This document shows, one piece after another, positions 12,104 through 63,235 of a stretch of DNA of 64,000 bases (position 1 is the first letter of the stretch; each line of letters starts with the position of its first letter). The stretch comes from Escherichia coli (GTDB taxonomy: Bacteria; Pseudomonadota; Gammaproteobacteria; Enterobacterales; Enterobacteriaceae). Under the pieces are notes generated by a model. The model searched no databases. It saw only the letters and a list, made by a program, of their open reading frames with translations, and was not told the DNA's origin. A program made the position numbers and the translations under genes. The stretch lies in NCBI RefSeq assembly GCF_044324785.1, contig NZ_CP172127.1; one strand, given 5' to 3'.

Positions 12104-12149
12104 TTTGTTATTCCTCTTTAAACCTGTCTGAACCGTTATCAACCGCGCA

Positions 12150-12557: not shown

Positions 12558-12725
12558 CAAATGTTGCCTAAATTCAATATATTGATGTTTTTGTAGGACT
12601 GATAAGCGGAGCGCATCAGTCAATGGTATATTTGCTAACAGTTTCGATTTCATTCATAGAATGAATTGTCAGTTTTGATACGCTAGCGTAGCCTTATAGA
12701 TCTAAGGTGTATCAGGAGATAACGG

Positions 12726-13550: not shown

Positions 13551-13595
13551 ACGATCACGCCAGCAGGACGCCGCATGCACTGCAAGGGGGCGTGT

Positions 13596-14525: not shown

Positions 14526-14791
14526 AGAAAAATTATTATGACAAGCCTCTCATTCTCTTGTCATTTCCCCCCCATTTAGGCACAATGCGCCGCTGTCAAA
14601 AAATGACTAAAAACCGACGTTTCATCAGCGTCGGTTATTTTTTGCTTCAAACCAATCATTCATACCAAGAGGCCGGGCTTCGTACCGGATAGATATTTAC
14701 TAAAAATCGACAGTTGTTGTCGCTGAGGAATCCAAAAAAATGGGGCAATTTTTTGCTTACGCGACGGTTATCACCGTAAAGGAGAATGACC

Positions 14792-16150: not shown

Positions 16151-16168
16151 TCATCTTTTCTAATAATA

Positions 16169-16207
16169 AACCGGAGTCGAATGAATATTTGGCTCCGGTT
16201 TTTTTAT
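16169..16207 (+). terminator. Rho-independent terminator after plaP
   Basis: Hairpin aaccggag..ctccggtt followed by a run of 8 T. Confidence 0.65.
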
Positions 16208-16328
16208 TCTTTTTTATCGATATCCTCATTAATAACCATTTGTTCTAATTTAGAGAATTTGGTTATTGGTCTGCATTCCACCAGTCATGAATAATTTCCC
16301 TATTAACATTCATCTGGTTAATTAATTT

Positions 16329-17387
16329 ATGTTTTCAATGATATTAAGCGGGCTAATTTGTGGTGCTCTGCTGGGATTTGTCATGCAGCGTGGGCGTTTT
16401 TGCCTGACAGGTGGTTTTCGCGATATGTATATCGCAAAAAATAATCGCATGTTTTACGCCTTGCTGATTGCAATTTCGGTACAAAGCGTGGGGGTTTTTG
16501 CGTTAATTCAGGCGGGCCTACTGACTTACGAAGCCGGGGCGTTCCCGTGGCTTGGTACTGTTATAGGTGGGTATATCTTCGGGCTGGGAATTGTTCTGGC
16601 GGGTGGATGTGCCACCGGGACCTGGTATCGCGCGGGTGAGGGATTGATCGGCAGTTGGATCGCGCTTTTCACTTATATGGTGATGAGTGCGGTGATGCGT
16701 TCTCCACATGCCAGTGGTTTAAATCAAACCTTGCAGCACTACAGTACTGAACATAACTCTATTGCTGAGACTTTTAATTTGTCTGTGTGGCCGTTGGTTA
16801 CCGTTTTGCTGGTGATAACGCTCTGGGTGGTGATGAAAGAGTTGAAGAAGCCAAAACTCAAAGTCGCGACCTTACCGCCGCGCCGAACCGGGATCGCTCA
16901 TATTCTGTTTGAAAAACGCTGGCATCCCTTTGTCACTGCTGTACTCATCGGTTTGATTGCGCTTTTAGCCTGGCCCCTGAGTGAAGCAACCGGACGCATG
17001 TTTGGGTTAGGAATCACTTCCCCAACGGCCAATATTCTGCAATTTCTGGTCGCGGGTGACGTGAAATACATTAACTGGGGCGTTTTCCTGGTGTTAGGGA
17101 TCTTCGTGGGGTCATTTATTGCAGCCAAAGCGAGCCGTGAGTTCCGCGTTCGCGCAGCTGATGCACAAACAACATTACGTAGCGGGTTAGGTGGTGTACT
17201 GATGGGCTTCGGTGCCAGTATTGCAGGTGGTTGCTCTATCGGTAATGGACTGGTTATGACTGCAATGATGACCTGGCAGGGCTGGATTGGCCTTGTATTT
17301 ATGATTCTCGGAGTCTGGACTGCGTCCTGGCTTGTGTATGTTCGACCGCAGCGTAAGGCGCGACTGGCAACTGCTGCGGCAAATTAA
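16329..17387 (+). CDS. yeeE: Inner membrane transporter YeeE (thiosulfate uptake, TsuA-like)
   Basis: 352 aa, MFSMILSGLICGALLGFVMQRGRFCLTGGF.. YeeE/YedE family with conserved Cys motifs. Confidence 0.92.
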   Translation: MFSMILSGLICGALLGFVMQRGRFCLTGGFRDMYIAKNNRMFYALLIAISVQSVGVFALIQAGLLTYEAGAFPWLGTVIGGYIFGLGIVLAGGCATGTWYRAGEGLIGSWIALFTYMVMSAVMRSPHASGLNQTLQHYSTEHNSIAETFNLSVWPLVTVLLVITLWVVMKELKKPKLKVATLPPRRTGIAHILFEKRWHPFVTAVLIGLIALLAWPLSEATGRMFGLGITSPTANILQFLVAGDVKYINWGVFLVLGIFVGSFIAAKASREFRVRAADAQTTLRSGLGGVLMGFGASIAGGCSIGNGLVMTAMMTWQGWIGLVFMILGVWTASWLVYVRPQRKARLATAAAN

Positions 17388-17400
17388 GTAAGGTGTAAAG

Positions 17401-17628
17401 ATGGCGATTAAAAAGCTGGATGTGGTGACGCAGGTCTGTCCGTTTCCACTCATAGAAGCAAAAGCAGCACTGGCAGAAATGGCCAGCGGCGATGAGTTGG
17501 TAATTGAGTTTGATTGCACCCAGGCAACTGAAGCAATCCCACAGTGGGCGGCAGAAGAAGGACATGCCATCACCGATTATCAGCAGATTGGCGATGCAGC
17601 GTGGAGCATCACCGTTCAAAAAGCCTGA
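17401..17628 (+). CDS. yeeD: TusA-like sulfurtransferase YeeD
   Basis: 75 aa with CPFP motif (MAIKKLDVVTQVCPFPLIEAK..), immediately downstream of yeeE. Confidence 0.92.
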   Translation: MAIKKLDVVTQVCPFPLIEAKAALAEMASGDELVIEFDCTQATEAIPQWAAEEGHAITDYQQIGDAAWSITVQKA

Positions 17629-17670
17629 CTCAACATTGTCCTCCGCCGTACCAGCGGCGGAGGCTTCAAA

Positions 17671-19098
17671 TTAGACGATCTCTTCCGCGTACTGCCAAAG
17701 CGCTTTTAACAGCGCCACTTTCTCTTTGTTATCGGCATATTGTTGTGCCAGCATCTGCAATTCATCTGCATAACCCTGTAAAAACTCTGGCGTGAAGACC
17801 TGGCGGCGGTGCTCCAGCCAGCGTTGCTGCTCGGCATAATCCAGCGTCCCCGGGAAGTTGCGCGCCCGATAATTGAACAACAGCTTTTCAATTCGTTTAT
17901 CAACAAAAGTGATATCCAGTGCCGGTAAATTACGCGGCTCGGTTTCCAGCACAATTTTCATTGCTGCACGATCGGCGTCACTGAAAAAGCCATTATAAAG
18001 CTGTGCATCCACATTATCTGAAGGTGTAAACGGTTCGGCTTCCGCGAATATCGCTACCACTTTTTCACGCACTTGCGGATTTTCACGCAGAATTTTTAGG
18101 TTATCGAGGCAATGCTGACGATTAATTCCCAGTCGGTCGGCATCTTCCGGGCGTAGCGTATTCGCCTGGGCCAGTACCGGACATTTATTGATATGCACCA
18201 GCTTAACCGGAACGGCGGCGTTATCGCCAAGATCGGCTTTTGCGGTATATAAACGCTCGCGCAATGTGTCGCTATCCAGTTCCAGTAATGGCGAAATGTC
18301 TCCTGCCAAATCCACCATAATTACGGCATTGCGATTTTCAGGATGCCACGCCAGCGGTGCTACCCAGCTGGTATTGCCGCGCCATGCCCCAAACATTCCG
18401 GAAACGTGAACCAGGGGTTTCATCTGCGGAACATCAATCAACGCCATTAGTTTGTGTTTATTACGATGGGTAAAGAGATAATCAAACAGGCGCGGCTGGC
18501 GCGTTTTTACCAGTTTTGCCATCGCAATAGTGGCGTACACATCAGCCATCGCATCGTGTGCGTTGCTATGTTCAATACCATTCGCTTTGGTTAAATGCTC
18601 AAGGCGAAAGCTCGGTAGACCGTCATCATTTTCAGGCCAGTTTATTCCTTCCGGGCGCAGGGCATAACAGGCACGCATAACATCCAGCAAATCCCAGCGC
18701 GAGTTATCATGCTGCCAGCTCCAGGCGTAAGGATCGTAGAAATTACGATAAAAAACGTTGCGTGTGACTTCGTCGTCGAAACGCACATTGTTGTAGCCCA
18801 GAATACAGGTCTTCGGTACGGTAAAAAGCGAGTGAATACGGGCGGCAAACGCGGCTTCGTTTTCTCCTTTCGCCCGTGCTTCCTGCGGGGTAATACCGGT
18901 AATTAATACTGCTCCAGGCTGGGGTAAATAGTCATCCGCGGGCTTGCAGTAAAAGACTTCGGGTTCGCCGATGACATTGAATTCGCTATCGGTGCGAATG
19001 GCTGCGAACTGTGCAGGGCGATCTAACGCGGGGTGCGTGCCAAAGGTTTCGTAATCGTGAAACAAAAAGGTAGATTGTTGCTTACCGTCATTCATCAT
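17671..19098 (-). CDS. sbcB: Exodeoxyribonuclease I
   Basis: MMNDGKQQSTFLFHDYETFGTHPALDRPAQFAAIRTD.. SbcB (475 aa); internal ATG of ORF 17671..19146. Confidence 0.95.
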   Translation of the reverse strand: MMNDGKQQSTFLFHDYETFGTHPALDRPAQFAAIRTDSEFNVIGEPEVFYCKPADDYLPQPGAVLITGITPQEARAKGENEAAFAARIHSLFTVPKTCILGYNNVRFDDEVTRNVFYRNFYDPYAWSWQHDNSRWDLLDVMRACYALRPEGINWPENDDGLPSFRLEHLTKANGIEHSNAHDAMADVYATIAMAKLVKTRQPRLFDYLFTHRNKHKLMALIDVPQMKPLVHVSGMFGAWRGNTSWVAPLAWHPENRNAVIMVDLAGDISPLLELDSDTLRERLYTAKADLGDNAAVPVKLVHINKCPVLAQANTLRPEDADRLGINRQHCLDNLKILRENPQVREKVVAIFAEAEPFTPSDNVDAQLYNGFFSDADRAAMKIVLETEPRNLPALDITFVDKRIEKLLFNYRARNFPGTLDYAEQQRWLEHRRQVFTPEFLQGYADELQMLAQQYADNKEKVALLKALWQYAEEIV

Positions 19099-19306
19099 TA
19101 GGTTAAATCCGTTATTTCTGCTGTCTGCCAGAGTATCAAATATCACCGTGCTAATCAGCTTTAGCGCGACAATTTGACAGCGAGTGGCAACAAATCATGT
19201 CAGATAAAAATGAGAGGGTAGTCACATTTTCTTGCACTTTATTCCAGCCAGTTCATAAGTATTTCCGTAAAAAGAACAGCTATTTGAAACTCCTGAGGGT
19301 TTGCTG

Positions 19307-20473
19307 TTGAAACGCCGTCTTATTATTGCTGCTTCTTTGTTCGTTTTTAACTTATCGTCTGGTTTTGCGGCGGAAAACATTCCTTTTTCACCTCAGCCAC
19401 CAGAGATTCATGCCGGGTCCTGGGTACTGATGGATTACACCACCGGACAGATCCTCACCGCGGGTAATGAGCATCAACAGCGCAATCCCGCCAGCCTGAC
19501 AAAGCTGATGACGGGCTATGTCGTGGATCGCGCTATCGATAGTCATCGCATTACGCCAGACGATATTGTCACCGTGGGGCGCGATGCGTGGGCGAAAGAT
19601 AATCCGGTGTTTGTCGGTTCTTCACTGATGTTTTTGAAAGAGGGCGATCGCGTATCGGTACGTGATTTAAGCCGTGGTTTAATTGTGGATTCCGGAAATG
19701 ACGCTTGTGTTGCTCTGGCTGACTATATTGCCGGTGGGCAACGGCAGTTTGTTGAAATGATGAACAACTATGCCGAGAAGCTGCATCTCAAGGATACGCA
19801 TTTTGAAACAGTGCATGGTCTGGATGCACCTGACCAGCATAGCTCGGCTTATGATTTAGCCGTGCTTTCTCGCGCTATCATCCACGGCGAGCCCGAGTTT
19901 TATCATATGTACAGTGAGAAAAGCCTCACCTGGAACGGTATCACCCAGCAAAACCGTAACGGGTTATTGTGGGATAAGACCATGAATGTTGACGGCCTGA
20001 AAACGGGTCATACTTCTGGTGCCGGGTTTAATCTTATTGCTTCGGCTGTAGACGGGCAGCGTCGCCTCATTGCAGTGGTAATGGGTGCTGACAGCGCAAA
20101 AGGTCGTGAGGAAGAGGCAAGAAAATTACTGCGTTGGGGGCAACAAAACTTTACTACGGTGCAAATTTTGCACCGTGGGAAAAAGGTCGGTACGGAACGC
20201 ATCTGGTATGGTGATAAAGAAAATATCGCCCTGGGAACGGAACAAGAGTTCTGGATGGTGCTACCGAAAGCCGAAATTCCACATATCAAAGCCAAATATA
20301 CCCTTGATGGTAAAGAACTCACCGCGCCAATTAGCGCCCATCAACGGGTAGGGGAAATTGAACTTTACGACCGTGATAAACAGGTGGCGCACTGGCCGCT
20401 GGTTACCCTGGAATCTGTCGGGGAAGGCAGCATGTTTTCCCGGCTGAGTGATTATTTCCACCATAAGGCCTGA
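19307..20473 (+). CDS. dacD: D-alanyl-D-alanine carboxypeptidase (PBP6b)
   Basis: ..KRRLIIAASLFVFNLSSGFAAENIPF.. with SxxK motif (PASLTKLM); ORF-track start 19301 is TTG; the TTG at 19307 is better spaced from GAGGG. Confidence 0.9.
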   Translation: MKRRLIIAASLFVFNLSSGFAAENIPFSPQPPEIHAGSWVLMDYTTGQILTAGNEHQQRNPASLTKLMTGYVVDRAIDSHRITPDDIVTVGRDAWAKDNPVFVGSSLMFLKEGDRVSVRDLSRGLIVDSGNDACVALADYIAGGQRQFVEMMNNYAEKLHLKDTHFETVHGLDAPDQHSSAYDLAVLSRAIIHGEPEFYHMYSEKSLTWNGITQQNRNGLLWDKTMNVDGLKTGHTSGAGFNLIASAVDGQRRLIAVVMGADSAKGREEEARKLLRWGQQNFTTVQILHRGKKVGTERIWYGDKENIALGTEQEFWMVLPKAEIPHIKAKYTLDGKELTAPISAHQRVGEIELYDRDKQVAHWPLVTLESVGEGSMFSRLSDYFHHKA

Positions 20474-36880: not shown

Positions 36881-39800
36881 ATGAGCGGAAAACCGGCAGC
36901 ACGTCAGGGCGATGCCACAATGAAAGGTGGCCCGATAGTCCAGGGGTCGGCAGGCGTGAGGATTGGCGCGCCAACCGGCGTGGCCTGTTCAGTGTGCCCC
37001 GGCGGATTCACTTCCGGTAACCCGGTGAATCCGCTGCTCGGTGCAAAAGTACAGCCCGGCGAAACCGATTTCGCGCTGCCCGGCCCGTTACCGTTCGTGC
37101 TCTCCCGCACCTACAGCAGCTACCGGACGAAAACCCCTGCGCCCGTCGGTATCTTCGGTCCTGGCTGGAAAGCACCCTTTGATATCCGCTTACAGATACG
37201 CGATAACGAACTGATACTCAATGATAACGGTGGCAGAAGCATTCATTTTGAGCACCTGTTTCCCGGTGAGGATGGCTTCAGCCGCAGCGAATTATTCTGG
37301 CTGGTGCGCGGCGGCGTGGCGAAACTGAATGAAAGTCACCGTCTTGCCCCACTCTGGCAGGCTCTGCCGGAAGAACTCCGCATGAGTCCGCATATTTATC
37401 TGGCGACGAACAGTCCGCAGGGGCCGTGGTGGATACTCGGCTGGAGTGAGCGGGTACCGGGTGTGGATGAGGTGCTGCCTGCGCCATTGCCGCCGTACCG
37501 GGTGCTGACCGGCCTGGTGGACCGCTTCGGGCGTACCCTGACCTTCCGGCGTGAGGCAGTTGGCGAATTTACCGGGGAAATCACCGGCGTGACCGATGGC
37601 GCAGGCCGTCAGTTCCGCCTGGTGCTGACCACGCAGGCGCAGCGGGCGGAAGAGGCCCAGCAGCAGGCGGTTGCAGCCGGAGCAAAACGACCAGATATCC
37701 CGGTTTCATTGCCGGACTATACAGAATATGGCCGGGATAACGGCATCCGCCTGTCAGCGGTGTGGCTGGCGCATGACCCGGAATACCCGGAGAATTTACC
37801 TGCCGCGCCACTGGTGCGCTACGACTGGACGCCACGCGGTGAACTGGCGGCGGTGTATGACCGCAGCGGTACGCAGATGCGCCACTTTACTTACGATGAT
37901 AAATACCGGGGCCGGATGGTGGCGCACCGTTACGCAGGCAGGCCGGAGATGCGTTACCGCTACGACGACATCGGGCGCGTGACGGAACAACGTAATCCGG
38001 CGGGTTTAAGCTACACCTATCAGTATGAGAAAAACCGCATCATCATCACCGACAGCCTGAACCGGTGCGAGGTGCTGCATACAGAAGGCGAAGCCGGGCT
38101 GAAACGGGTGGTGAAAAAAGAGCACGCTGACGACAGCGTCACACAGAGTCAGTTCGATTCCATTGGCCGCCTTCAGTCACAGACGGATGCGGCAGGCCGG
38201 ACGACAGAATACAGTCCGAATGTGGTGACGGGTCTCGTCACACGCATCACCACGCCGGACGGCAGGAAATCGGAATTTTACTATAACAACCAGAACCAGT
38301 TAACCTCAGCATCCGGGCCTGACGGACTGGAAATGCGCAGGAAATATGATGAGTACGGGCGTCTGACGCAGGAAACCGCTCGCAACGGCGATATCACCCG
38401 CTACAGTTATGATAATCCGCACAGTGAATTACCCTCTGCAACTGAAGATGCGACGGGTAGCCGCAAGCAGATGACGTGGAGCCGTTACGGGCAGTTACTG
38501 ACTTTCACCGACTGCTCAGGCTACCAGACCCGTTATGAATACGACCGCTTTGGTCAGATGACGGCGGTCCACCGTGAGGAAGGTGTCAGTCTTTACCGCA
38601 GCTATGACAGCCGTGGTCAGTTAATCTCGGTGAAAGATACGCAGGGCCGTGAAACGCAGTATGAGTACAACGGTGCAGGCGACCTGACCGCCATTATCAC
38701 GCCAGACGACAACAGAAGCGAGACACAGTACGATGCGTGGGGAAAGGCCGTCAGTACCACGCAGGGCGGGCTGACGCGCAGCATGGAATACGACGTTGCC
38801 GGACGTGTCATCAGCCTGACCAACGAGAACGGCTGTCACAGCGACTTCAGTTACGATGTGCTCGACCGCCTGATACAGCAGAGCGGCTTTGACGGGCGGA
38901 CGCAACGTTACCGTTACGACCTGACCGGGAAACTCACGCAGAACGAGGATGAGGGGCTTGTCACCCTCTGGCACTACGACGAATCGGACCGTATCACACA
39001 CCGCACGGTGAACGGCGAACCGGCAGAGCAGTGGCGGTATAACGACCACGGCTGGCTGAAAGAAATCAGCCACCTGAGCGAAGGTCACCGGGTGGCGGTG
39101 CATTACGGCTATAACCGTAAGGGACGTCTCACCGGCGAGCGCCAGACGGTGCATAACCCGGAGACGGGGGAACTGCTCTGGCTGCATGAGACAAAACACG
39201 CCTACAACGAACAGGGTCTGGCAAACCGCGTCACGCCGGACTGCCTGCCTGCTGTGGAGTGGCTGACCTACGGCAGCGGTTACCTGGCGGGGATGAAGCT
39301 GGGCGACACGCCGCTGCTGGAGTACGCGCGCGACCGCCTGCACAGAGAAACGGTGCGCAGCTTTGGCAGCATGGCAGGCAGTAATGCCGCATACGAACTG
39401 ACCAGCACATACACCCCTGCAGGCCAGTTACAGAGCCAGCACCTGAACAGCCTGGTGTATGACCGTGACTACGGGTGGAATGACAACGGCGACCTGGTGC
39501 GCATCAGCGGCCCGCGACAGACGCGGGAATATGGCTACAGCGCCACGGGCAGGCTGGAGAGTGTGCGCACCCTCGCACCGGACCTGGACATCCGCATCCC
39601 GTATGCCACCGACCCGGCGGGCAACCGGCTGCCGGACCCGGAGCTGCACCCGGACAGTACACTCACGGCGTGGCCGGATAACCGCATCGCCGAAGACGCG
39701 CATTACCTGTACCGTTACGATGAATACGGCAGGCTGACGGAGAAGACGGACCGCATCCCGGCGGGTGTGATACGGACGGACGACGAGCGGACCCACCACT

Positions 39801-41062
39801 ACCACTACGACAGCCAGCACCGTCTGGTGTTCTACACGCGGATACAGCATGGCGAGCCACTGGTCGAGAGCCGCTACCTCTACGACCCGCTGGGACGGCG
39901 AATGGCGAAAAGGGTATGGCGGCGGGAGCGTGACCTGACGGGGTGGATGTCGCTGTCGCGTAAACCGGAGGAGACATGGTACGGGTGGGACGGCGACAGG
40001 CTGACGACGGTGCAGACTGACACCACGCGTATCCAGACGGTGTACCAGCCGGGAAGCTTCACGCCGCTCATCAGAATCGAAACAGACGTGACCGAACTGG
40101 AGAAAGCGCAGCGGCGAAGCCTGGCGGAGAAGTTACAGCAGGAAGGGAGTAAAGATGGTCACGGCGTGGTGTTCCCGCCTGAACTGGTGCGGCTGCTGGA
40201 CAGGCTGGAGGGGGAAATCCGGGCAGACCGTGTGAGTGACGAAAGCCGGGCGTGGCTTGCGCAGTGCGGGCTGACGGTGGAGCGGCTGGCGGCACAGATC
40301 GAGCCAGTTTATTTGCCTGAGCGAAAAATACATCTTTATCACTGCGACCACCGGGGACTGCCGCTGGCGCTTATCAGTACTGAAGGTGCAACGGAATGGC
40401 GTGGGGAGTATGACGAGTGGGGGAATCAGCTTAATGAGGAGAACCCGCATCATCTGTTCCAGCCATACCGCCTGCCGGGGCAGCAGTACGATGATGAATC
40501 GGGGCTGTGCTATAATCGTTATCGTTACTACGAGCCGTTACAAGGGAGGTATATTACACAGGACCCGATTGGGTTAAATGGGGGGTGGAATTTATATAAA
40601 TATCCGCTGAATCCAATAAATTATGCAGATCCTCTTGGCTTAGCCGTAGATATAAACCACTTCCCAGTCAACGAAGACATACGAAATTATGCAGAGAAAG
40701 TTTGGAATAATCCTAATATCATTACAATTGGAACACATGGTGATCCTCAATCAGTATATGATGAAAATTATAATAAGATAGATGTCAAGACATTAGCTAA
40801 TGAGGTTCGAAATCATCCTAAATTTAAACCTGGAATGTCAGTAAGACTGTTATCCTGTAATACAGGAAAAGGAAATAACTCTTTTGCACAGCAATTGGCA
40901 GATGAACTAGGTGTGAGAGTCTATGCTCCTGACCAATATGACTGGTACTATTCAAATGGTAAGGTAGAGCCTTGGGGAGGATTCTATGATGCAAACAATC
41001 AATTGCAAATGGACACGAATCAGCCTGGACATGAGTTTACATTCAAGCGAAGGAAACCATAG
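36881..41062 (+). CDS. Rhs-family polymorphic toxin: N-terminal PAAR-like domain, YD-repeat core, variable C-terminal toxin domain
   Basis: 1393 aa; N-terminus [38 protein letters not shown] (PAAR-like); many YD repeats (..RYRYDDIGR.., ..YEYDRFGQ..); core ends in the PxxxxDPxGL motif ([14 protein letters not shown]); SD AAGGAT upstream. Confidence 0.95.
40643..41059 (+). other. Variable C-terminal toxin domain of the Rhs protein (139 aa, low GC)
   Basis: Sequence after [144 protein letters not shown]. Clear drop in GC relative to the core. Confidence 0.8.
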
Positions 41063-41064
41063 GT

Positions 41065-41667
41065 ATGAGGTATTTTCTCTTTATATTTATAACAATCCCC
41101 CTTATCTCTGGAGGTCATATGAGTAATGATAGCGAAAAGATAATATCAACATATTCGCTCAATTTTTTATCACCAGATGATGTGAGGAAAGAAGAACTTA
41201 AGGCATCACAAGGTGATAGTGATGCTGCATTTAAATTGTACAAATATTACCTTTTTTGCGAGCCAAAATCATACAGAAAACAGCACGAATGGTTAATAAT
41301 ATCGGCAAATAATGGAAATGCTATAGCTCAATATAACTTATCAAGAGAACTTGAGTCAGAAGGAAAAGTAGATGAATCAATACAATGGCTGAAAAAATCA
41401 GCGGAACATGGTAATAATTATGCACAATATCAGATGTCAAAATATTTATTAAAAATAGGTGATATTAGAGGATCGGAATATTATCTAAACTTATCTGCGG
41501 ATAACGGATGTGTATTTGCAATAAAAGATATTATCAAAAATATGATGGATAGTGGAAGGTACGATGACGCCCTCATTTGGGTTGAAAAATTGAAAAAATT
41601 GTATCCTGACACAAATACCGAACTTTACATACAAAAAATAACGCAGAAAAAAAAGCAATCCAAATAA
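41065..41667 (+). CDS. Putative cognate Rhs immunity protein with Sel1-like repeats
   Basis: Starts 2 nt after the rhs stop; AT-rich; Sel1/TPR-like repeats (..GNAIAQYNLSRELESEGKV..SIQWLKKSAEHGNNYAQYQMSKYLL..). An alternative start ATG at 41119 has a strong GGAGG SD. Confidence 0.7.
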   Translation: MRYFLFIFITIPLISGGHMSNDSEKIISTYSLNFLSPDDVRKEELKASQGDSDAAFKLYKYYLFCEPKSYRKQHEWLIISANNGNAIAQYNLSRELESEGKVDESIQWLKKSAEHGNNYAQYQMSKYLLKIGDIRGSEYYLNLSADNGCVFAIKDIIKNMMDSGRYDDALIWVEKLKKLYPDTNTELYIQKITQKKKQSK

Positions 41668-41955
41668 TAATTATATATAATTACTCGCACAGAGTTACAG
41701 TATTGCAAGAAATATATCTAGCATATAAAGTCGCCGCCAGTAAAGATAAAGTACTGTGTAATCCTTCCTCCCATATAGGGGTAAAAACTTAGCATCCAGT
41801 GCCCTCGACTTAATTTTTAGTATTTTCTCTGTGAAGTGACACTTCGTAGGATTCAGTTCATGTTTACCAGAAAAAAGGTGGTCATTCTGGTGGTCTTGAC
41901 AATCTCGATTTTTTGTTTTAGCTTTCCAATCAGCCAATTAATGGCTACGGCGATC

Positions 41956-41975
41956 CCAGTCAGAGGAGCCAAATT
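41956..41975 (+). repeat. Island right-end direct repeat (attR): copy of the tRNA-Asn 3' end
   Basis: ccagtcagaggagccaaatt is identical to the 3' end of asnW plus 4 nt of flank (31412..31431). Confidence 0.8.
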
Positions 41976-43477: not shown

Positions 43478-44932
43478 TTACCGGAACGGCGGCTCATTAA
43501 ATGTTCGTAATTTACGTGAATGCAGTCGGTCGCCTTCTGCGCGCAGCAAATCGATCGCCCGAATGCCAATTTGCAGGTGTTCGGAAATAGCGCCTTCATA
43601 AAAACGGTTAGCCTGACCGGGAAGTTTAATCTCACCATGCAACGGTTTATCTGAAACACACAATAGTGTCCCGTATGGCACGCGGAAACGATATCCTTGC
43701 GCGGCAATGGTTGCACTTTCCATATCAATTGCTACGGCCCGGCTTAAGTTAAAACGAAGTGCAGAAGCTGAGTAACGTAATTCCCAGTTCCTGTCATCTG
43801 TGGTTACCACAGTGCCAGTACGTAGCCGCTGTTTAACTTCCTCACCGGGCCTGCCGCTGACTAACTTGGTAGCGTCATAAAGCGCACGTTGCACTTCAGC
43901 AATGCTCGGAATAGGAATATCGGGCGGCAGTACCGCATCAAGAACGTGGTCATCGCGTAAATAAGCGTGTGCAAGTACATAATCTCCAATGGCCTGGCTT
44001 TCACGTAAGCCACCACAGTGACCAATCATCAACCAGACATCCGGGCGTAGCACCGCCAGATGATCGCAGATGGTTTTTGCATTTGACGGTCCCACGCCAA
44101 TATTCACCAGAGTAATACCCTGACCATCGGCGGTAATTAAATGCCATGCTGGCATCTGGTGTTTTTTCCATGCAAGGTCGGAAATGGCTTCTTCTGGCGC
44201 TTTGGTTTCGGCGGTGATCCAGTTCCCGCCAGCACAAGAAAGGGCAATGTAGGGACTATCAGGGTCGAGGATCTGGCTGCATCCCCAACGAACGAATTCA
44301 TCCACATAACGTGTGTAGTTGGTAAACAAGACGAACGGCTGAAAATGTTCAACTGGCGTACCGGTGTAATGGCGCAACCGCGCGAGGGAAAAATCGACGC
44401 GGCGCGCATCAAAATGCGATAGCGGGGAGAATTCCGTTGGATGATAAATGCCGTCTGCAGTTTCATCGCCAATTTGCGCCAGTTCTGTTGTCGGGAAGTA
44501 GCGAGTTAACCCAGCGCTCATTGAGCGATCAAGGGTCAATTCAGAGCCATCGATGACATAAGGATAAGGGATTTCATGCTGCGAGGGTTGCACCGAGATA
44601 TGCGCACCATAATCCTGATACAACAACGTAAGTTGTTCATTGAGATACGAACGAAAGAGAGTAGGGCGAGTAATCGTGGTGGTGTAGCTGCCTGCGTGGG
44701 TAAAGCGACCAAATGCGCGCGTTTTGGGGGGATTGGTTGTGCTACCGTCCCAGGTTACGGTCAGTGATGGATAGACAAAAAGACCTTGTTTGCGGGCGTT
44801 TTCATCAGGTAATTCGCCACTTGTAATATAGTTGCCAATGGCGTTGCGTAAAGCGACTACAGATTGCTCATACAACGCGTCGAGTTTATCCAGTGCCTGA
44901 GCTGGGGTCAGACCGGAGCCCTTATTATTCAT
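43478..44932 (-). CDS. amn: AMP nucleosidase
   Basis: MNNKGSGLTPAQALDKLDALYEQSVVALRNAIGNY.. Amn (484 aa); internal ATG of ORF 43478..45088, preceded by AGGAG. Confidence 0.93.
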   Translation of the reverse strand: MNNKGSGLTPAQALDKLDALYEQSVVALRNAIGNYITSGELPDENARKQGLFVYPSLTVTWDGSTTNPPKTRAFGRFTHAGSYTTTITRPTLFRSYLNEQLTLLYQDYGAHISVQPSQHEIPYPYVIDGSELTLDRSMSAGLTRYFPTTELAQIGDETADGIYHPTEFSPLSHFDARRVDFSLARLRHYTGTPVEHFQPFVLFTNYTRYVDEFVRWGCSQILDPDSPYIALSCAGGNWITAETKAPEEAISDLAWKKHQMPAWHLITADGQGITLVNIGVGPSNAKTICDHLAVLRPDVWLMIGHCGGLRESQAIGDYVLAHAYLRDDHVLDAVLPPDIPIPSIAEVQRALYDATKLVSGRPGEEVKQRLRTGTVVTTDDRNWELRYSASALRFNLSRAVAIDMESATIAAQGYRFRVPYGTLLCVSDKPLHGEIKLPGQANRFYEGAISEHLQIGIRAIDLLRAEGDRLHSRKLRTFNEPPFR

Positions 44933-45033
44933 GTGTGTCTCCTGTTCCATACAATTACCGCACATCCGATAGTATGTCACAGAAATGTGAAACAAAAGTG
45001 TAAGACGAAGATCGGATGATCTTCGCCAGGCTA

Positions 45034-46350
45034 TCAAGCGCGTTGATTGTCTTTCATCAACAAAGCGGTCATTGCGGAAATCAGGCATCCAGCCAGCAAA
45101 TAAATAGCGACGCTATGCCAGTTCCCGGCAAAGTAAGTGATGAGTGCAGCGGCAATAAAAGGTGTAAATCCACCGCCAACCACACTGGCAACCTGATAAC
45201 CGACTCCAGCACCACTGTAGCGATAACTGGCACCAAACATTTCGGTAAACATCGGTTGTTGCACACACACCACCATGTCATGCGCAATGTTTGCCAGCAT
45301 TATGGAGAAGAAAACTATCCAGAAAATAGATTGTGCTTCAAGCGCCATAAAGAAAGGAAATGCGCTCAACGTTCCGATCAACGCGCCTGTGATATAAACC
45401 CTGCGGCGACCAAAACGATCGGCAAGCCAGGCAAAACAGGGAATTGTCAGGCAGCTTAATCCACCGACCAGCAAACCAATATTAAGGAAAAGTTCGCGCG
45501 GTAACCCCATATTCTGGGTTGAATAATTAAGTGCGAAGGCGGTAACGATGTACATCGTCAGCAACTCGCACAGTCGTAGCGCAATAATCTTCAGGAAAGC
45601 ACCGGGATGTCGTAATAGTGCTTCGATAACCGGGATGCGTTTTTTCGCGGCCGCTTGATTATGTTGCTGTTGTTCAAATTCCGCGGACTCCTCCATGCCA
45701 TTGCGCACCCACAATGCTCCCAGTACCAGTACGATGCTAAACAGGAAAGGAATGCGCCAGCCCCAGCTTAAAAACTGTTCGTCAGTCGTCATCATACTGA
45801 TCAATGAAACCAGTCCAGTTGAAAGCAGTAAACCTACACCGTAGCCAACTTGTACACCGCTACTGTAAAAGGCTTTTTTATTTTTCGGAGCACTTTCAAC
45901 AGAAAGCAACGCTGCGCCTCCCCATTCGCCGCCGACGGCAAATCCCTGTATGGCACGCAGCGTCACCAGTAAAATGGGGGCCCACCACCCAATGGTCGAG
46001 AAGGAAGGAAGAATACCAATCAAGGCTGTCGCGATACCCATCATCCAGACGGTCAGCATTAACATGCGCTTACGTCCCAGTCGGTCGCCAAAGTGACCGA
46101 AAATGACACCGCCGAGTGGTCGGAAAAGGAAGCCGACACCAAAGGTGGCAAATGCGGCGAGCGTTCCCATCGCCGGGCTTACTTGCGGGAAAAACTCGCG
46201 ATTAAACACCAGTGCGGCGGTAATGCCATAGAGTAAAAAATCATACCAGTCGACGACGGCACCAGCGAAACTGCCGAACGCAGCTCGTCGGGCGCGACTT
46301 AACGAAAGCGTCCCTTCATCGGGACGAGTGGAGATGAGCGTGGAGTCCAT
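45034..46350 (-). CDS. shiA: Shikimate transporter (MFS)
   Basis: 438 aa, MDSTLISTRPDEGTLSLSRARRAAFGSFAGAVVDWYDFLLYG.. ShiA. Confidence 0.93.
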   Translation of the reverse strand: MDSTLISTRPDEGTLSLSRARRAAFGSFAGAVVDWYDFLLYGITAALVFNREFFPQVSPAMGTLAAFATFGVGFLFRPLGGVIFGHFGDRLGRKRMLMLTVWMMGIATALIGILPSFSTIGWWAPILLVTLRAIQGFAVGGEWGGAALLSVESAPKNKKAFYSSGVQVGYGVGLLLSTGLVSLISMMTTDEQFLSWGWRIPFLFSIVLVLGALWVRNGMEESAEFEQQQHNQAAAKKRIPVIEALLRHPGAFLKIIALRLCELLTMYIVTAFALNYSTQNMGLPRELFLNIGLLVGGLSCLTIPCFAWLADRFGRRRVYITGALIGTLSAFPFFMALEAQSIFWIVFFSIMLANIAHDMVVCVQQPMFTEMFGASYRYSGAGVGYQVASVVGGGFTPFIAAALITYFAGNWHSVAIYLLAGCLISAMTALLMKDNQRA

Positions 46351-58384: not shown

Positions 58385-58469
58385 CTTTATCAATGACTTA
58401 CGTCACTCACTTTTCACCGTCGATCCCCCTGTTAGAACGGACTTAGAATATTCACTTAGAATTAGACCG

Positions 58470-59498
58470 TCACGGGTTTCTGCTCAGAACTGTGACATCC
58501 AGCACCGGAATATCCAGAGTCGGAGTTACTGCGGGTTTGCGATCATACGTCAGCACTTGCGCCTCTGTTTTGTGACCAGAGAACAACTGCTTTTCTTTAC
58601 TGCTTCCGTCGTAGTCTGAGATCCCCTTCGCTTTTAAATCGTGAAACGTTCCCGTAATCGGGTAGCCCAGCTTTTCACTTGCCGCCGCCCTGGCTTTACG
58701 CCAGATATCGTTAAATCCGGTATAGCTGTATTGCCCGCCATATTTGTTACAGACCACGAAATGTTGTCCTCCCAACGATTTCGCCTGCTCAAGTGCGAAC
58801 GTCAGTCGCTCTGAATACTGTTTGATCTGCTTTTTGCCAGTCTTACCCTGTTGGATAAACAACCCCTTACTCATTACCTGATCCCACGTCAGCTTTCGTA
58901 TATCGCCGATCCGCGTGGCGCACAGATAGGCGATCTCCATCGCGCACTGTAAAACGGGAGATGCCTCCTGATAAATTGCGATATATTCCTCGTCCGTGAA
59001 ATAGTAGTCGCGGGGCTTGAGGGAAAATTTACTGACGCCCTGGCATGGATTCCCTTTTACGTATCCGCGTTCGTATCCCCAGCGGAATACTCGCGACATA
59101 CTGGCTTTTTCATGGTTCGCCTGTGTTTTGCTTTTCAGCCCCCGCTTGTCCATATACAGCCGCACGTGAGCAGGTTTTATGTTGTCGGCTTTCATTTTCC
59201 CGAACGCGGCGAGTAATTTCTTCTGGTGCTGCAGATAATCCTTTTGTGTACGCTGACCGAGTTCCAGATAGTAGGTGCTGTTGAGAAATTTGTTCCAGAG
59301 TTTACTGAACGTCATGACATCAATAGCATCATTCAGGATCTCTTCGTATTTCACCCATACCTGAGCAATTGACAGATCATTAATTTTACCCAGCGTAATA
59401 CACTCTCGGGGCGTTGGTTTGAAATAATAGCTGTATTTGTTTTTATAAACGCGGGGTGGCAGCTTATTATCTTCCGCGTTTTTTCGTGTTCTGCTCAT
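58470..59498 (-). CDS. int: Lambda-family tyrosine integrase
   Basis: 342 aa; N-terminus MSRTRKNAEDNKLPPRVYKNKYSYYFKPTPRE.. resembles the lambda Int arm-binding domain; C-terminal ..TGTFHDLKAKGISDYD.. catalytic region. Confidence 0.85.
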   Translation of the reverse strand: MSRTRKNAEDNKLPPRVYKNKYSYYFKPTPRECITLGKINDLSIAQVWVKYEEILNDAIDVMTFSKLWNKFLNSTYYLELGQRTQKDYLQHQKKLLAAFGKMKADNIKPAHVRLYMDKRGLKSKTQANHEKASMSRVFRWGYERGYVKGNPCQGVSKFSLKPRDYYFTDEEYIAIYQEASPVLQCAMEIAYLCATRIGDIRKLTWDQVMSKGLFIQQGKTGKKQIKQYSERLTFALEQAKSLGGQHFVVCNKYGGQYSYTGFNDIWRKARAAASEKLGYPITGTFHDLKAKGISDYDGSSKEKQLFSGHKTEAQVLTYDRKPAVTPTLDIPVLDVTVLSRNP

Positions 59499-59713
59499 CA
59501 GATTGCATCAAAATTAGGTTGTTCTTCTTCGGCTATCTGCGCGGGTCTGGCTCCGGACAGCGCGGCGTTTACATGCGTCCACGTGACGCGAGGTCGCCCG
59601 TCGCGGCGTTTTACATAAGAGATCCCGGCACGGGTCAGGGCACCGCATTGTTTTGACGGGAACTGGTAACCGGTCAGTTCAACCAGTTCCTGGTCTGTTA
59701 GCAGGTCGTTCAT
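59498..59713 (-). CDS. xis: Excisionase-like protein (DUF4224-type)
   Basis: 71 aa MNDLLTDQELVELTGYQFPSKQCGALTRAGISYVKRRDGRPRVTW.., immediately upstream of int with overlapping start/stop. Confidence 0.65.
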   Translation of the reverse strand: MNDLLTDQELVELTGYQFPSKQCGALTRAGISYVKRRDGRPRVTWTHVNAALSGARPAQIAEEEQPNFDAI

Positions 59714-59903
59714 GGTCTTTCCTCATAATGCGGTAAATCAGGTCATCTGCCGCCTTGCAGGCACGGGCAATATCAGACTCGGTCAAAGTCTGTTTCCTGA
59801 CGCTGGCCGAGAGTCGGCCAATTTTGATATCAAATGCGGAGAGCAGAGTTGCTCCCGGTTGCCATCGCAGCATTGTGATCCTCCGGTTACTGGTGAATCG
59901 CAA
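59679..59903 (-). CDS. Hypothetical prophage protein (74 aa)
   Basis: ORF in the prophage early-left region; no family recognised. Confidence 0.3.
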   Translation of the reverse strand: MRFTSNRRITMLRWQPGATLLSAFDIKIGRLSASVRKQTLTESDIARACKAADDLIYRIMRKDHERPANRPGTG

Positions 59904-59922
59904 TGCTAGCGATGGTGAGTTT

Positions 59923-60105
59923 TTATTTCTGATTAGGCGTAATCAGTTCTGGTGGGGGGAATGCCGATTTCTCCCGCGTGACCTTAATGTTTTCTGGCAG
60001 GTGTAGCCCAAGTTCGCAGCGGCTCCGTGCTTCAATAATGCCATTGGTACCATCGGCAAGTACCAGGTGAACCGCGTCACCACGCTTTAATGTGAGTTTA
60101 AGCAT
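59923..60105 (-). CDS. Hypothetical prophage protein (60 aa)
   Basis: ORF whose start abuts the stop of the upstream gene; no family recognised. Confidence 0.3.
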   Translation of the reverse strand: MLKLTLKRGDAVHLVLADGTNGIIEARSRCELGLHLPENIKVTREKSAFPPPELITPNQK

Positions 60106-60674
60106 TAGCGTACCCTCAGCGAACGTTCGCCGTGTTCCAGATGTGCGCCTGGTACCGGGTTTAATAATTCGGCTGGTGGTGTTTCTCCACGCGCCAGTAT
60201 TTCGGCGGCAACCGCCTCCGCAGATTCAATCACTTCTTTAATGGCTCGTTTGTTTGGTGTAATAACCGTTTCTACATCAACAAGTGACACGCCTTCATAC
60301 TCATCCGGGATCTTATCTTTGCTATCGATAATTACCCGGATAGCCCCCTGTGCATCAGTAAATGTGTTTTTTGCGGTTTTCAGTTTATCCAGGCCAGCAG
60401 CTTGCAGGCAGGCGAGCATATGCTTCCGAATTGCTTTTTCCTTGCCTTCAAAGGACGTCTTACGGGTAGCCAGGCGAGACATTTCTTCAGCGCAGGTACT
60501 GGCATTGCCCTGTAAATTACGGCAGATGACCATCATGGCGTCCAGTTTGTCTCCCAGTTCTCCTTCCATACCTTCAAGCGTGTCGGCGATCATCTCTGGC
60601 GTCAGTTCGTCGGAGGTTTCCAGCAGGTCAATCAGGCTGGCGTATTCTTTTGCAATAGCGATAGCGGTGCTCAT
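60105..60674 (-). CDS. Hypothetical prophage protein, possibly Siphovirus Gp157-like
   Basis: 189 aa, acidic with a coiled-coil-like N-terminus; sits directly downstream of the large gene whose C-terminus looks like a ssDNA-annealing protein. Family assignment is from memory only. Confidence 0.4.
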   Translation of the reverse strand: MSTAIAIAKEYASLIDLLETSDELTPEMIADTLEGMEGELGDKLDAMMVICRNLQGNASTCAEEMSRLATRKTSFEGKEKAIRKHMLACLQAAGLDKLKTAKNTFTDAQGAIRVIIDSKDKIPDEYEGVSLVDVETVITPNKRAIKEVIESAEAVAAEILARGETPPAELLNPVPGAHLEHGERSLRVR

Positions 60675-62884: not shown

Positions 62885-62914
62885 TGGTCTTTCCTCATTA
62901 CAGGTCAGTGGTCT

Positions 62915-63235
62915 TTAGTAGGGGATTTCATCAGTATCTGGCGTGTATTCGATGCAAAGTAACTGCTGGATTTTGTCATCGATAGCAGCAATACGCTGTT
63001 GGGCGTCGGCGACTGTTTTCTGTTTTTGTTCACGCAGCTGCTCGACCTGTAAACCGATGATGTCGATTGGCTGGGGCTGGTTGACGGTAATTTCAATTTC
63101 GCGGCTTTCCAGAAGGATGTACCTGTCTGGAAAATTTTTTGACATATCAACCGTCGCAATAAGCAGCTTTTCATGGCTGAAAGTTGAAGTTGCATAATGA
63201 ATAAAGAGTGTTACTGGGATGGTGCGCGCTTCCAT
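62915..63235 (-). CDS. Hypothetical prophage protein (106 aa)
   Basis: ORF MEARTIPVTLFIHYATSTFSHEKLLIATVDMSKNFPDRYILLESREIEITVNQ..; no family recognised. Confidence 0.35.
   Translation of the reverse strand: MEARTIPVTLFIHYATSTFSHEKLLIATVDMSKNFPDRYILLESREIEITVNQPQPIDIIGLQVEQLREQKQKTVADAQQRIAAIDDKIQQLLCIEYTPDTDEIPY

What the first reader, a model, noticed from the sequence alone, without database searches (positions are those of the whole stretch)
36881..41062. PAAR-Rhs effector with no type VI secretion genes anywhere in the 64-kb window
The N-terminal PAAR-like domain normally caps a VgrG spike for T6SS delivery, yet no tss/vgrG/hcp genes are seen here and the locus sits in a small tRNA island. 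Either a T6SS is encoded elsewhere, or the protein acts by another route or is silent.
Basis: partly seen in the sequence, partly recalled or inferred. Interest (0 to 1): 0.5.

Follow-up and report, generated by a model that had tools for sequence, protein, structure and literature searches.

The report
Stand-alone E. coli Rhs toxin gene
This is an ordinary stand-alone copy of an E. coli Rhs toxin gene with its immunity gene, carried on a small mobile island; every sequenced strain checked that has it also encodes the type VI secretion machinery elsewhere on the chromosome.

Summary
The ORF is real: 36881..41062 (+), 1393 aa, a full-length "RHS element core protein" (NCBIfam 2592 bits, cutoff 2000). 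No tss, hcp or vgrG gene lies in the 64-kb window.

The gene sits in a 10.5-kb island at tRNA-Asn asnW, flanked by a 20-bp direct repeat. K-12 has the empty site.

The "PAAR-like domain" is a single PAAR repeat (aa 2-29). It matches the last third of PAAR models and scores far below their thresholds.

The absence of nearby T6SS genes is not unusual:
- The closest complete genome (E. coli N3, rhs 100% identical) has a T6SS-2 cluster at aspV. There hcp-vgrG is followed by an Rhs with the same N-terminus.
- All 53 listed complete genomes carrying this toxin/immunity module also carry T6SS-2 genes.
- The toxin domain (41% identity) and immunity protein (29%) are homologous to the pair directly after vgrG in the O157 Sakai T6SS-2 island.

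The toxin domain is predicted to be a clan-CD, CPD-like cysteine protease (His1286/Cys1326).

"Neighbourless" Rhs genes related to T6SS2-Rhs are already described in E. coli. Verdict: a conventional orphan T6SS effector, a new member of a known kind, of low interest. The source strain's own genome could not be checked.

The parts
36881..41062 (+). rhs gene, 1393 aa: RHS element core protein with a C-terminal toxin
   Evidence: ORF. NF041261 at 2592.6 bits against a cutoff of 2000, full-length. Pfam DUF6531, RHS repeats and PF03527.
36881..37015 (+). N-terminal 45 aa: a single PAAR repeat (aa 2-29) followed by the conserved [14 protein letters not shown] segment
   Evidence: Matches only the last third of PAAR models, below thresholds. 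No Pfam PAAR hit. Nearly invariant across the family. The AF2 model is uninformative, with pLDDT below 30.
37016..37249 (+). DUF6531 region (aa 46-123), starting with NPVNPLLG
   Evidence: Pfam E 1.2e-19. aa 48-169 align with the first residues (PVNPMLG...) of the Tse5 chain in PDB 8cp6_B, E 1.6e-15. That NPVNPLLG is the N-terminal autocleavage site is my inference from that alignment and recalled knowledge of Tse5 processing.
37250..40642 (+). YD/RHS-repeat shell and Rhs-associated core, ending in DPLGL (aa 1250-1254); 59.8% GC
   Evidence: Similarity to the island in strain CH4790 ends exactly at nt 40642.
40643..41059 (+). C-terminal toxin domain (aa 1255-1393): predicted clan-CD (CPD/C80-like) cysteine protease with His1286 and Cys1326; 37% GC
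41065..41667 (+). Putative immunity gene, a Sel1/TPR-like repeat protein. RefSeq starts it at 41119 (182 aa), behind a GGAGG motif. The longer ORF from 41065 gives 200 aa.
   Evidence: 29% identity, E 1e-19, to Sakai ECs_0238, which follows the vgrG-linked Rhs. Always found with the CT: 91 genomes, one copy each. Pfam repeat hits are only weak.
31352..31427 (+). tRNA-Asn (asnW), the integration site; attL is its 3' end at 31412-31431
31428..41971 (.). 10.5-kb genomic island carrying the rhs-immunity pair; attR repeat at 41956-41975
   Evidence: 20-bp direct repeat and the K-12 empty site. A 90-93% identical island lies at asnT in strain CH4790.
31487..32850 (+). Disrupted P4-type tyrosine integrase, split into two ORFs
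   Evidence: NF007246 matches are split over two ORFs. Annotated as frameshifted in N3.
35713..36359 (-). Island backbone genes: a 153-aa hypothetical protein and a 62-aa SfsB/Ner-like HTH regulator

Best explanation
This is a conventional 'neighbourless' (orphan) Rhs polymorphic toxin of E. coli with its cognate immunity gene. It is carried as cargo on a small integrase-type island inserted in tRNA-Asn asnW.

Proposed mechanism, all inferred:
1. The protein folds into an Rhs shell that encloses its 139-aa C-terminal toxin.
2. It is mounted through its short, conserved N-terminal region on the VgrG spike of the T6SS-2 apparatus encoded at the aspV locus of the same chromosome.
3. It is fired into neighbouring bacteria.
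4. The toxin is released by autocleavage at DPLGL and acts as a clan-CD cysteine protease (His1286/Cys1326) on an unknown cytoplasmic target.
5. The Sel1/TPR-like protein encoded just downstream protects sibling cells.

Shown here: gene integrity, family membership, island structure, presence of T6SS-2 in carrier genomes, homology to a vgrG-linked Rhs/immunity pair, and the predicted protease fold.

Not shown: loading on VgrG, secretion, killing, protease activity, and neutralisation by the immunity protein.
For: - The gene is an intact, full-length Rhs core protein.
- In E. coli N3, whose rhs locus is 100% identical, the aspV island encodes tssB, C, E, F, G, tagH, tssJ, K, L, H, vasI, tssA, tssM, vasL and hcp. 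Divergent from these lies hcp-vgrG-rhs.
- That vgrG-linked Rhs starts [11 protein letters not shown]...[14 protein letters not shown], like ours. The O157 Sakai vgrG-linked Rhs is 80% identical over the first 200 aa.
- A chimeric query combining the CT-immunity module with tssC, tssK, tssH and tssM segments gave 4-5 places in all 53 listed carriers. About 3,500 of 5,426 genomes (65%) carry some T6SS-2 sequence, and 2,029 (37%) hold at least 80% of the 19-kb cluster.
- The CT is 41% identical (E 5e-37) and the immunity protein 29% identical (E 1e-19) to Sakai ECs_0237/ECs_0238, which lie immediately after vgrG.
- aa 48-169 are homologous to the T6SS Rhs effector Tse5.
- The toxin fold is CPD-like and resembles the T6SS effector Tce1.
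- Literature: neighbourless Rhs-CTs are related to T6SS2-Rhs. Rhs-CT3 killing depends on ClpV2, and the orphan Rhs-CT5 of O157 is active (PMC6730261, summarising Ma et al. 2017). Orphan rhs genes in EHEC are regarded as T6SS substrates (PMC7216683, PMC13141884).
Against: - The source strain's own genome is not in the complete-genome set. Flanks are only 98-99.6% identical to N3, so its T6SS status is inferred from relatives.
- In N3, tssA and vasL are flagged frameshifted, and in Sakai tssA is a pseudogene. The N3 flags may be assembly errors.
- The N-terminus is only one PAAR repeat, below all PAAR thresholds. How it would bind VgrG is therefore unclear.
- No EagR/DUF1795 chaperone or vgrG lies nearby.
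- For the O157 homologue, no secretion or killing could be obtained even after promoter replacement (PMC13141884).
- Co-occurrence counts are not corrected for shared ancestry.
Confidence: 0.75

Rival explanations
1. Silent reserve cassette. The gene is intact but essentially not expressed, for example because it is H-NS-silenced. Its main roles would be as a recombination reservoir of toxin/immunity modules and as a source of immunity against neighbours that fire the same toxin. It would not be an actively delivered weapon.
For: - A 240-bp very AT-rich stretch lies directly upstream of the start codon.
- No promoter-like site was found on the + strand upstream.
- The O157 T6SS-2 and its Rhs are H-NS-repressed and undetectable in vitro (PMC13141884).
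- Porcine ETEC carriers keep the immunity gene, while rhs is annotated only as a C-terminal fragment or not at all.
- The CT/immunity pair is swapped in the related island of strain CH4790.
Against: - The 4.2-kb ORF is intact, with a good AAGGA ribosome-binding site.
- The CT-immunity module is at least 99% conserved in all 91 genomes that carry it, and 85 of them cover at least 80% of a 5.4-kb query spanning rhs.
- The catalytic His and Cys are retained.
- This reading does not exclude conditional T6SS delivery.
Confidence: 0.15
2. T6SS-independent function. The toxin/immunity pair would act inside the producer as an addiction module that stabilises the island or as an abortive-infection defence. 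Alternatively, the Rhs would leave the cell by a route other than T6SS.
For: - The locus is on a mobile island with no T6SS gene nearby.
- The N-terminus is not a complete PAAR domain.
Against: - No signal peptide and no SpvB/TcdB-type, CDI or LXG delivery domain was found.
- There is no PADLOC defence match.
- The N-terminus is 80% identical to that of an Rhs encoded directly after vgrG.
- Every carrier examined has T6SS-2.
Confidence: 0.05
3. Decaying remnant: a non-functional gene on a dead island.
For: - The island's integrase and a second integrase-like gene are disrupted.
- Rhs genes are frameshifted in some relatives: the aspV copy in N3 and the CH4790 copy.
Against: - Here the ORF is uninterrupted and matches the whole 1261-position family model.
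- The toxin model is very confident and keeps its catalytic residues.
- The immunity gene is intact.
Confidence: 0.05

Closest known systems
E. coli 'neighbourless' Rhs-CT effectors (Rhs-Nb) and the classic Rhs elements RhsA-E of K-12
   Same: - Same NCBIfam equivalog (RHS element core protein).
- Same short N-terminus, [11 protein letters not shown]...
- GC-rich core (59.8%) with an AT-rich CT and immunity gene (31-37%).
- DPxGL boundary, with an immunity gene immediately downstream.
- Located away from T6SS genes.
   Different: - The core is only 80-90% identical in DNA to the common Rhs copies.
- It sits in an integrase island at asnW rather than at the classic Rhs sites.
- Its CT is a CPD-like protease domain rather than a nuclease.
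Rhs of the O157:H7 T6SS-2 island (Sakai ECs_0237 / EDL933 z0268, called 'PAAR') with ECs_0238/z0269
   Same: - The first 200 aa are 80% identical.
- The CT is homologous (41%) and the immunity protein is homologous (29%).
- Both CTs resemble the RtxA cysteine protease domain (PMC7216683).
   Different: - The O157 gene lies 75 bp downstream of vgrG inside the T6SS cluster. This one is 1.85 Mb away in strain N3.
- The two CT/immunity pairs show no detectable DNA similarity.
Structurally characterised T6SS Rhs effectors (P. aeruginosa Tse5, Photorhabdus Rhs1/Tre23, P. protegens RhsA)
   Same: DUF6531 entry into the shell, RHS-repeat cocoon, and C-terminal autocleavage motif.
   Different: From my knowledge of these systems, and for P. 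protegens RhsA from PMC7773334 and PMC8765631, those proteins have a prePAAR motif, transmembrane helices, a complete PAAR domain, and an Eag chaperone. Here there is a single PAAR repeat, no transmembrane region, and no chaperone gene.
Clan-CD cysteine protease domains: MARTX/TcdA/TcdB CPD (peptidase C80) and P. aeruginosa T6SS effectors Tce1/Tce2
   Same: Same fold, with a His-Gly ... Cys dyad placed after consecutive beta-strands.
   Different: - The domain is only 139 aa, against about 200-250 aa for the CPD chains in the PDB.
- No significant Pfam C80 hit for this sequence.
- It would be delivered inside an Rhs shell rather than in an Hcp ring.
- It has a dedicated immunity protein, which suggests an antibacterial target. 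Tce2 is reported as anti-eukaryotic (PMC13323088).

Membership tests
Rhs/YD-repeat polymorphic toxin (RHS element core protein, NF041261) | Full-length match above the curated cutoff | tested here: met
   2592.6 bits against a cutoff of 2000; aa 1-1254 cover profile positions 1-1261 of 1261.
Rhs/YD-repeat polymorphic toxin (RHS element core protein, NF041261) | YD/RHS repeats plus an Rhs-associated core ending in DPxGL | tested here: met
   Pfam RHS_repeat in many copies, PF03527, TIGR03696 and TIGR01643. DPLGL at aa 1250-1254.
Rhs/YD-repeat polymorphic toxin (RHS element core protein, NF041261) | Variable C-terminal toxin with a cognate immunity gene directly downstream (C-terminal displacement) | tested here: met
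   - The CT-immunity module is single-copy in 91 genomes.
- A related island carries a different CT and immunity gene, with the similarity break exactly at DPLGL.
- The immunity protein is homologous to ECs_0238.
- The toxin-immunity interaction itself was not tested.
PAAR domain (Pfam PF05488; NCBIfam NF033420) | Match to the domain model at or above its threshold | tested here: not met
   No Pfam PAAR hit at E<=10. NF033420 scores 15.4 bits against a cutoff of 124. No listed homologue carries a PAAR (PF05488) annotation among its precomputed Pfam domains; all carry DUF6531.
PAAR domain (Pfam PF05488; NCBIfam NF033420) | Three PAAR repeats forming the conical fold | tested here: not met
   Only aa 2-29 align, always to the last repeat: profile positions 68-94 of 94, and residues 67-93 of 4jiv. 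Only 45 aa precede DUF6531.
PAAR domain (Pfam PF05488; NCBIfam NF033420) | PAAR-like three-dimensional fold | tested here: inconclusive
   In the AF2 model of aa 1-130, aa 1-57 all score pLDDT below 50, and the 10-residue block means over aa 1-50 are 28-30. The alignment was shallow.
PAAR domain (Pfam PF05488; NCBIfam NF033420) | Binding to the tip of the VgrG trimer | not testable with these tools
   Needs a pull-down, cryo-EM, or a multimer model.
T6SS VgrG-dependent effector | Genetic linkage to vgrG, hcp, tss or chaperone genes at the locus | tested here: not met
   None in the 64-kb window.
T6SS VgrG-dependent effector | A close paralogue with the same N-terminus encoded directly after vgrG in a T6SS cluster | tested here: met
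   N3 aspV island. Sakai, 80% identity over 200 aa.
T6SS VgrG-dependent effector | A T6SS encoded in the same genome | tested here: met
   Met for carriers: 53 of 53 listed complete genomes with this module have 3-4 of the 4 T6SS-2 segments, and N3 has the whole cluster. The source strain's own genome was not available.
T6SS VgrG-dependent effector | T6SS-dependent secretion and killing, neutralised by the immunity protein | not testable with these tools
   Requires an experiment.
Clan CD cysteine peptidase (C80/CPD-like) | Caspase-like alpha/beta fold | tested here: met
Clan CD cysteine peptidase (C80/CPD-like) | Conserved His-Gly ... Cys catalytic dyad | tested here: met
   H32, G33 and C72 of the domain (His1286, Cys1326) are invariant in 30 homologues. 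A profile aligns them with the legumain dyad at non-significant E values of 0.18-1.3.
Clan CD cysteine peptidase (C80/CPD-like) | Significant match to a Pfam family of the clan | tested here: not met
   None for this sequence. Relatives give only weak DUF4347, C80 and C13 hits.
Clan CD cysteine peptidase (C80/CPD-like) | Proteolytic activity and substrate | not testable with these tools
   Requires an experiment.
tRNA-integrated genomic island | Direct repeat of the tRNA 3' end at both borders, an integrase next to the tRNA, and an empty site in a relative | tested here: met
   20-bp repeat at 31412 and 41956. The integrase is present but split. K-12 has only 452 bp between yeeN and asnW. The same island lies at asnT in strain CH4790.

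The most novel reading that the evidence does not exclude
The whole E. coli 'RHS element core protein' family may not use a canonical PAAR cone. Its strictly conserved 45-residue N-terminus holds only one PAAR repeat plus a [14 protein letters not shown] motif. It might cap the three-fold VgrG tip as a homotrimer, putting three Rhs cages on one spike, or it might dock by an undescribed mode that uses the two cysteines. That would be a new way of mounting effectors on T6SS-2. It could also bear on why secretion by this system has been hard to reconstitute.
Probability: 0.1. Interest if true: 0.55.

Novelty: new member of a known kind. Interest (0 to 1): 0.15.

Why it matters
The main value is in closing the question. 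An Rhs gene far from T6SS genes is the normal state in E. coli, so this locus needs no new delivery route.

Three smaller points are of some use:
- This Rhs travels on an integrase island that targets tRNA-Asn genes (asnW here, asnT in another strain) and swaps its toxin/immunity end.
- The toxin is a compact CPD-like cysteine protease domain. It belongs to a large, mostly unannotated family with more than 1,200 cluster representatives and an unknown target.
- The 'PAAR' of this widespread E. coli Rhs family is only a third of a PAAR domain, which the literature generally glosses over.

Tried and rejected
- **Finding the source genome.** The rhs locus is 100% identical to E. coli N3, but the flanks are 98.3-99.6% identical. 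The O-antigen end and the prophage end have no match above 98.2% in any of the 5,426 complete genomes. The strain's own T6SS content therefore could not be read.
- **AF2 model of the N-terminus (aa 1-130).** Mean pLDDT was 42.9, and aa 1-57 all score below 50. It was not used for a fold search.
- **Word-indexed protein search with the toxin domain.** It returned only 2 near-identical fragments. The exhaustive representative search was needed instead.
- **Pfam on the toxin and immunity proteins.** Nothing significant.
- **PADLOC on Rhs, the immunity protein and two backbone proteins.** No defence-system match.
- **Locating the aspV T6SS of an O121:H19 carrier by assuming K-12-like coordinates.** The guess landed in the slp-rpoH region and was abandoned.
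- **A shared tssA frameshift in N3 and Sakai.** I considered whether it was a conserved feature. The shifts are at different positions, so it is not.
- **Ma et al. 2017 (Environ Microbiol).** The paper is not held. Its content is cited only through PMC6730261 and PMC7216683.
- **Literature link between Rhs and asnW.** None found.
Full report
**What is in the sequence**

- It matches the NCBIfam equivalog NF041261, 'RHS element core protein', over its whole length. aa 1-1254 cover profile positions 1-1261 of 1261, at 2592.6 bits against a curated cutoff of 2000.
- Pfam finds DUF6531 at aa 46-123, a long series of RHS repeats, and the 'RHS protein' motif at aa 1150-1186.
- The core ends in DPLGL at aa 1250-1254, nt 40628-40642.
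- The core is 59.8% G+C. The last 139 codons are 37% and the next gene is 31.5%. This is the classic GC-rich core with an AT-rich extension seen in Rhs elements (recalled from the classic Rhs literature, not checked here).
- Two bases after the stop codon a 200-aa ORF begins (41065..41667). RefSeq starts it at 41119, behind a GGAGG motif, which gives 182 aa.

**Genomic setting**

The window is Escherichia coli chromosome. Its order is: O-antigen end, gnd, ugd, wzzB, his operon, yeeZ...sbcB, cobUST, ldtA, asnV, nac, cbl, asnU, yeeO, asnW, island, yeeN, amn, shiA, yeeJ, asnT, mtfA, serU, prophage.
- K-12 has only 452 bp between yeeN and asnW.
- The K-12 sequence aligns to the window up to 31439 and again from 41956. 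The 20-bp string CCAGTCAGAGGAGCCAAATT, the 3' end of the tRNA, occurs at 31412 and 41956.
- So rhs and its neighbour are cargo of a 10.5-kb island (31428-41971) integrated in asnW.
- The island's P4-type integrase next to the tRNA is split into two ORFs.
- The backbone also holds a second broken integrase-like gene, an EFASI RNA, a Ner/SfsB-like HTH gene, a 153-aa gene and a C4 antisense RNA.
- No tss, hcp, vgrG or Eag gene is annotated anywhere in the collinear N3 stretch or found in the non-collinear ends.

**The 'PAAR-like domain'**

- Pfam reports no PAAR hit even at E<=10.
- All 120 listed homologues of the N-terminus carry DUF6531, and none carries PAAR, among their precomputed Pfam domains.
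- With the first 56-61 residues alone, three independent libraries give weak matches, all to the same piece. The PDB PAAR proteins 4jiv, 9rce and 4jiw align aa 2-29 to their last repeat, with best E 0.024. NCBIfam T6SS_PAAR_dom scores 15.4 bits against a cutoff of 124, aligned to profile positions 68-94 of 94. PHROG_281 'PAAR motif' gives E 2e-4.
- Only 45 residues precede DUF6531. The protein therefore carries one PAAR repeat, about a third of the cone, followed by a nearly invariant [14 protein letters not shown] segment.
- An AF2 model of aa 1-130 was uninformative, with aa 1-57 all below pLDDT 50.
- From aa 48 onward the protein is homologous to the T6SS Rhs effector Tse5, E 1.6e-15. The Tse5 shell chain in the PDB begins at the equivalent PVNPMLG.

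**Is a T6SS encoded elsewhere?**

The source strain itself is not among the 5,426 complete E. coli genomes. The rhs locus is 100% identical to strain N3, but the flanks are 98.3-99.6% identical and the two window ends differ. I therefore examined carriers of the locus.
- In N3, 1.85 Mb from the island, the aspV site holds a T6SS-2 cluster: tssB, C, E, F, G, tagH, tssJ, K, L, H, vasI, tssA, tssM, vasL and hcp. Divergent from these lies hcp-vgrG-'RHS element core protein'.
- That vgrG-linked Rhs begins [42 protein letters not shown], the same short N-terminus as ours.
- In O157:H7 Sakai the same arrangement is present. The Rhs starts 75 bp after vgrG and is 80% identical to ours over the first 200 residues.
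- The toxin-plus-immunity DNA (40660-41667) occurs once each in 91 genomes, always at 99% identity or more.
- A chimeric query joined that module to 600-bp pieces of N3 tssC, tssK, tssH and tssM. It listed 53 carriers, and every one had 4 or 5 separate places. Each therefore carries the module plus three or four T6SS-2 segments.
- For comparison, about 65% of all genomes have some T6SS-2 sequence, and 37% have at least 80% of the 19-kb cluster.
- These counts are not corrected for shared ancestry.

**Link to a vgrG-adjacent effector**

- The C-terminal domain is 41% identical (E 5e-37) to that of Sakai ECs_0237 (EDL933 z0268), the Rhs inside the T6SS-2 island.
- The downstream protein is 29% identical (E 1e-19) to ECs_0238/z0269.
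- Our module is thus a diverged variant of an effector-immunity pair that sits directly behind vgrG in another lineage.

**What the toxin probably is**

- An exhaustive search finds 1,268 cluster representatives with this domain. They lie at the C-termini of Rhs-like and other polymorphic-toxin proteins, and in 2-5 matched copies (3-6 stretches by the search's own count) inside proteins of about 700-6,800 aa.
- His32-Gly33 and Cys72 of the domain, which are His1286 and Cys1326, are invariant in 30 diverse members.
- The AF2 model is very confident: pLDDT 97.5, pTM 0.90.
- Foldseek's first 14 hits are all CPDs.
- A sequence profile weakly aligns the dyad with that of legumain.
- The O157 homologue was earlier likened to the RtxA CPD by threading (PMC7216683). 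Tce1 and Tce2 are described as putative cysteine-protease T6SS effectors (PMC13323088).
- I therefore predict a compact clan-CD cysteine protease.
- The homologous O157 immunity protein has a hydrophilic N-terminus, and the favoured start at 41119 gives no signal peptide. I infer a cytoplasmic immunity protein and hence a cytoplasmic target.
- The immunity protein has only weak TPR/Sel1 Pfam hits, though RefSeq names it a TPR/Sel1 protein.

**The island is mobile and polymorphic**

- The backbone (31428-36880) is present at 80% coverage or more in 269 genomes, more than the 91 that carry this toxin.
- In strain CH4790 a 90-93% identical island lies at asnT, bounded by the same repeat.
- Similarity to our window runs through the Rhs core and stops exactly at nt 40642, the DPLGL boundary. 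Beyond it lie a different toxin containing a HELGH (HExxH-type) motif and a different small gene.
- This is the standard C-terminal displacement of Rhs genes, here on a tRNA-Asn-targeting island.

**Comparison with what is known**

- E. coli genomes have a median of 6 places matching this Rhs query, and up to 13. From my own knowledge, K-12 has five Rhs elements and no functional T6SS.
- The review PMC6730261 summarises Ma et al. 2017. Besides vgrG/EagR-linked Rhs-CTs there are 'neighbourless' Rhs-CTs (Rhs-Nb), which share ancestry with the T6SS2-encoded Rhs. Rhs-CT3 killing required ClpV2, and the orphan Rhs-CT5 of O157 mediates antagonism.
- The EHEC papers list four orphan rhs genes as presumed T6SS substrates (PMC7216683, PMC13141884).
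- The present locus fits this class in every tested respect.
- It differs from the structurally studied T6SS Rhs effectors, which have a prePAAR motif, transmembrane helices, a complete PAAR domain and an Eag chaperone. That description rests on PMC7773334 and PMC8765631 for P. protegens RhsA, and on my own knowledge for Tse5 and Rhs1.

**Caveats**

- T6SS-2 activity is not guaranteed. N3 has tssA and vasL flagged as frameshifted, and Sakai has a tssA pseudogene at a different position.
- The N3 flags may be assembly errors. Its amn is also flagged, but amn is intact in the window.
- The O157 system is H-NS-repressed, and neither secretion nor killing could be obtained even after promoter swapping (PMC13141884).
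- A very AT-rich stretch lies just upstream of our rhs, and no consensus promoter was found there. Conditional silence is therefore a live, non-exclusive alternative.
- No PADLOC defence model matches, and no alternative export signal is present.

**Verdict**

The puzzle is resolved in the conventional direction.
- This is an orphan T6SS-2-type Rhs effector with its immunity gene on a small tRNA-Asn island.
- The secretion apparatus and a matching vgrG are encoded elsewhere in every carrier genome examined.
- It is a new member of a known kind, of low interest.
- The one thread that could be more than routine concerns the whole E. coli Rhs family rather than this locus: how a one-third PAAR mounts on VgrG.

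Noticed in passing
window 36413-36501 (-) and 34851-34978 (-): Two Rfam RNAs above gathering score lie inside the island backbone. A C4 antisense RNA (62 bits) lies just upstream of the 153-aa/HTH gene pair. An EFASI RNA (101 bits) lies next to the broken integrase-like gene.
   Followed up: no
L008 (E. coli CH4790) 8984-19669: A 90-93% identical island is integrated at asnT instead of asnW, with the same repeat at both borders. Its Rhs carries a different C-terminal toxin with a HELGH (HExxH-type) motif and a different downstream gene. Similarity to the window ends exactly at the DPLGL codons.
   Followed up: partly
proteins P0006-P0031: The toxin domain family occurs in 2-5 matched copies (3-6 stretches by the search's count) inside proteins of about 700-6,800 aa with non-Rhs N-termini. 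Most members have no Pfam annotation beyond weak DUF4347/C80 hits.
   Followed up: partly
L002 11963-13377 and 16931-18341 (N3); L006 23971-25382 (Sakai): The T6SS-2 tssA gene is interrupted in both N3 and O157 Sakai, but at different positions. N3 vasL is also shifted near its end. This could be real decay of T6SS-2 or, for N3, assembly error.
   Followed up: partly
hits H134-H148 (porcine ETEC and O139:H1 strains): These carriers keep the immunity gene at 99.8% identity. Their rhs is annotated only as a C-terminal 'RHS repeat-associated core domain' fragment or not at all, and they show 4 rather than 5 places in the chimeric search. This may be immunity retention after loss of the toxin.
   Followed up: no
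window 58400-64000: Downstream of serU the window diverges from N3 and carries prophage genes: a tyrosine integrase at 58470-59498 and an exonuclease VIII-like gene at 60671-62884. The best matches in complete genomes are only 98.2% identical.
   Followed up: no
window 1-1008 and 16152-17673: Two further differences from N3. One is a galE-type epimerase at the O-antigen end of the window. The other is a tsuA/yeeE thiosulfate transporter gene (16329-17387) that is absent from the N3 annotation between plaP and sbcB.
   Followed up: no
window 43478-45088 (-): amn is intact in the window but flagged as frameshifted in N3. This suggests the N3 assembly is prone to single-base indels.
   Followed up: partly
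L003 1001-1910 (N3, thrW site): A hypothetical-protein gene followed by an HTH-domain gene lies beside an integrase remnant at tRNA-Thr in N3. By gene order and annotation it resembles the island's 153-aa/HTH pair, which hints at a common backbone module of such islands. The sequences were not compared.
   Followed up: no
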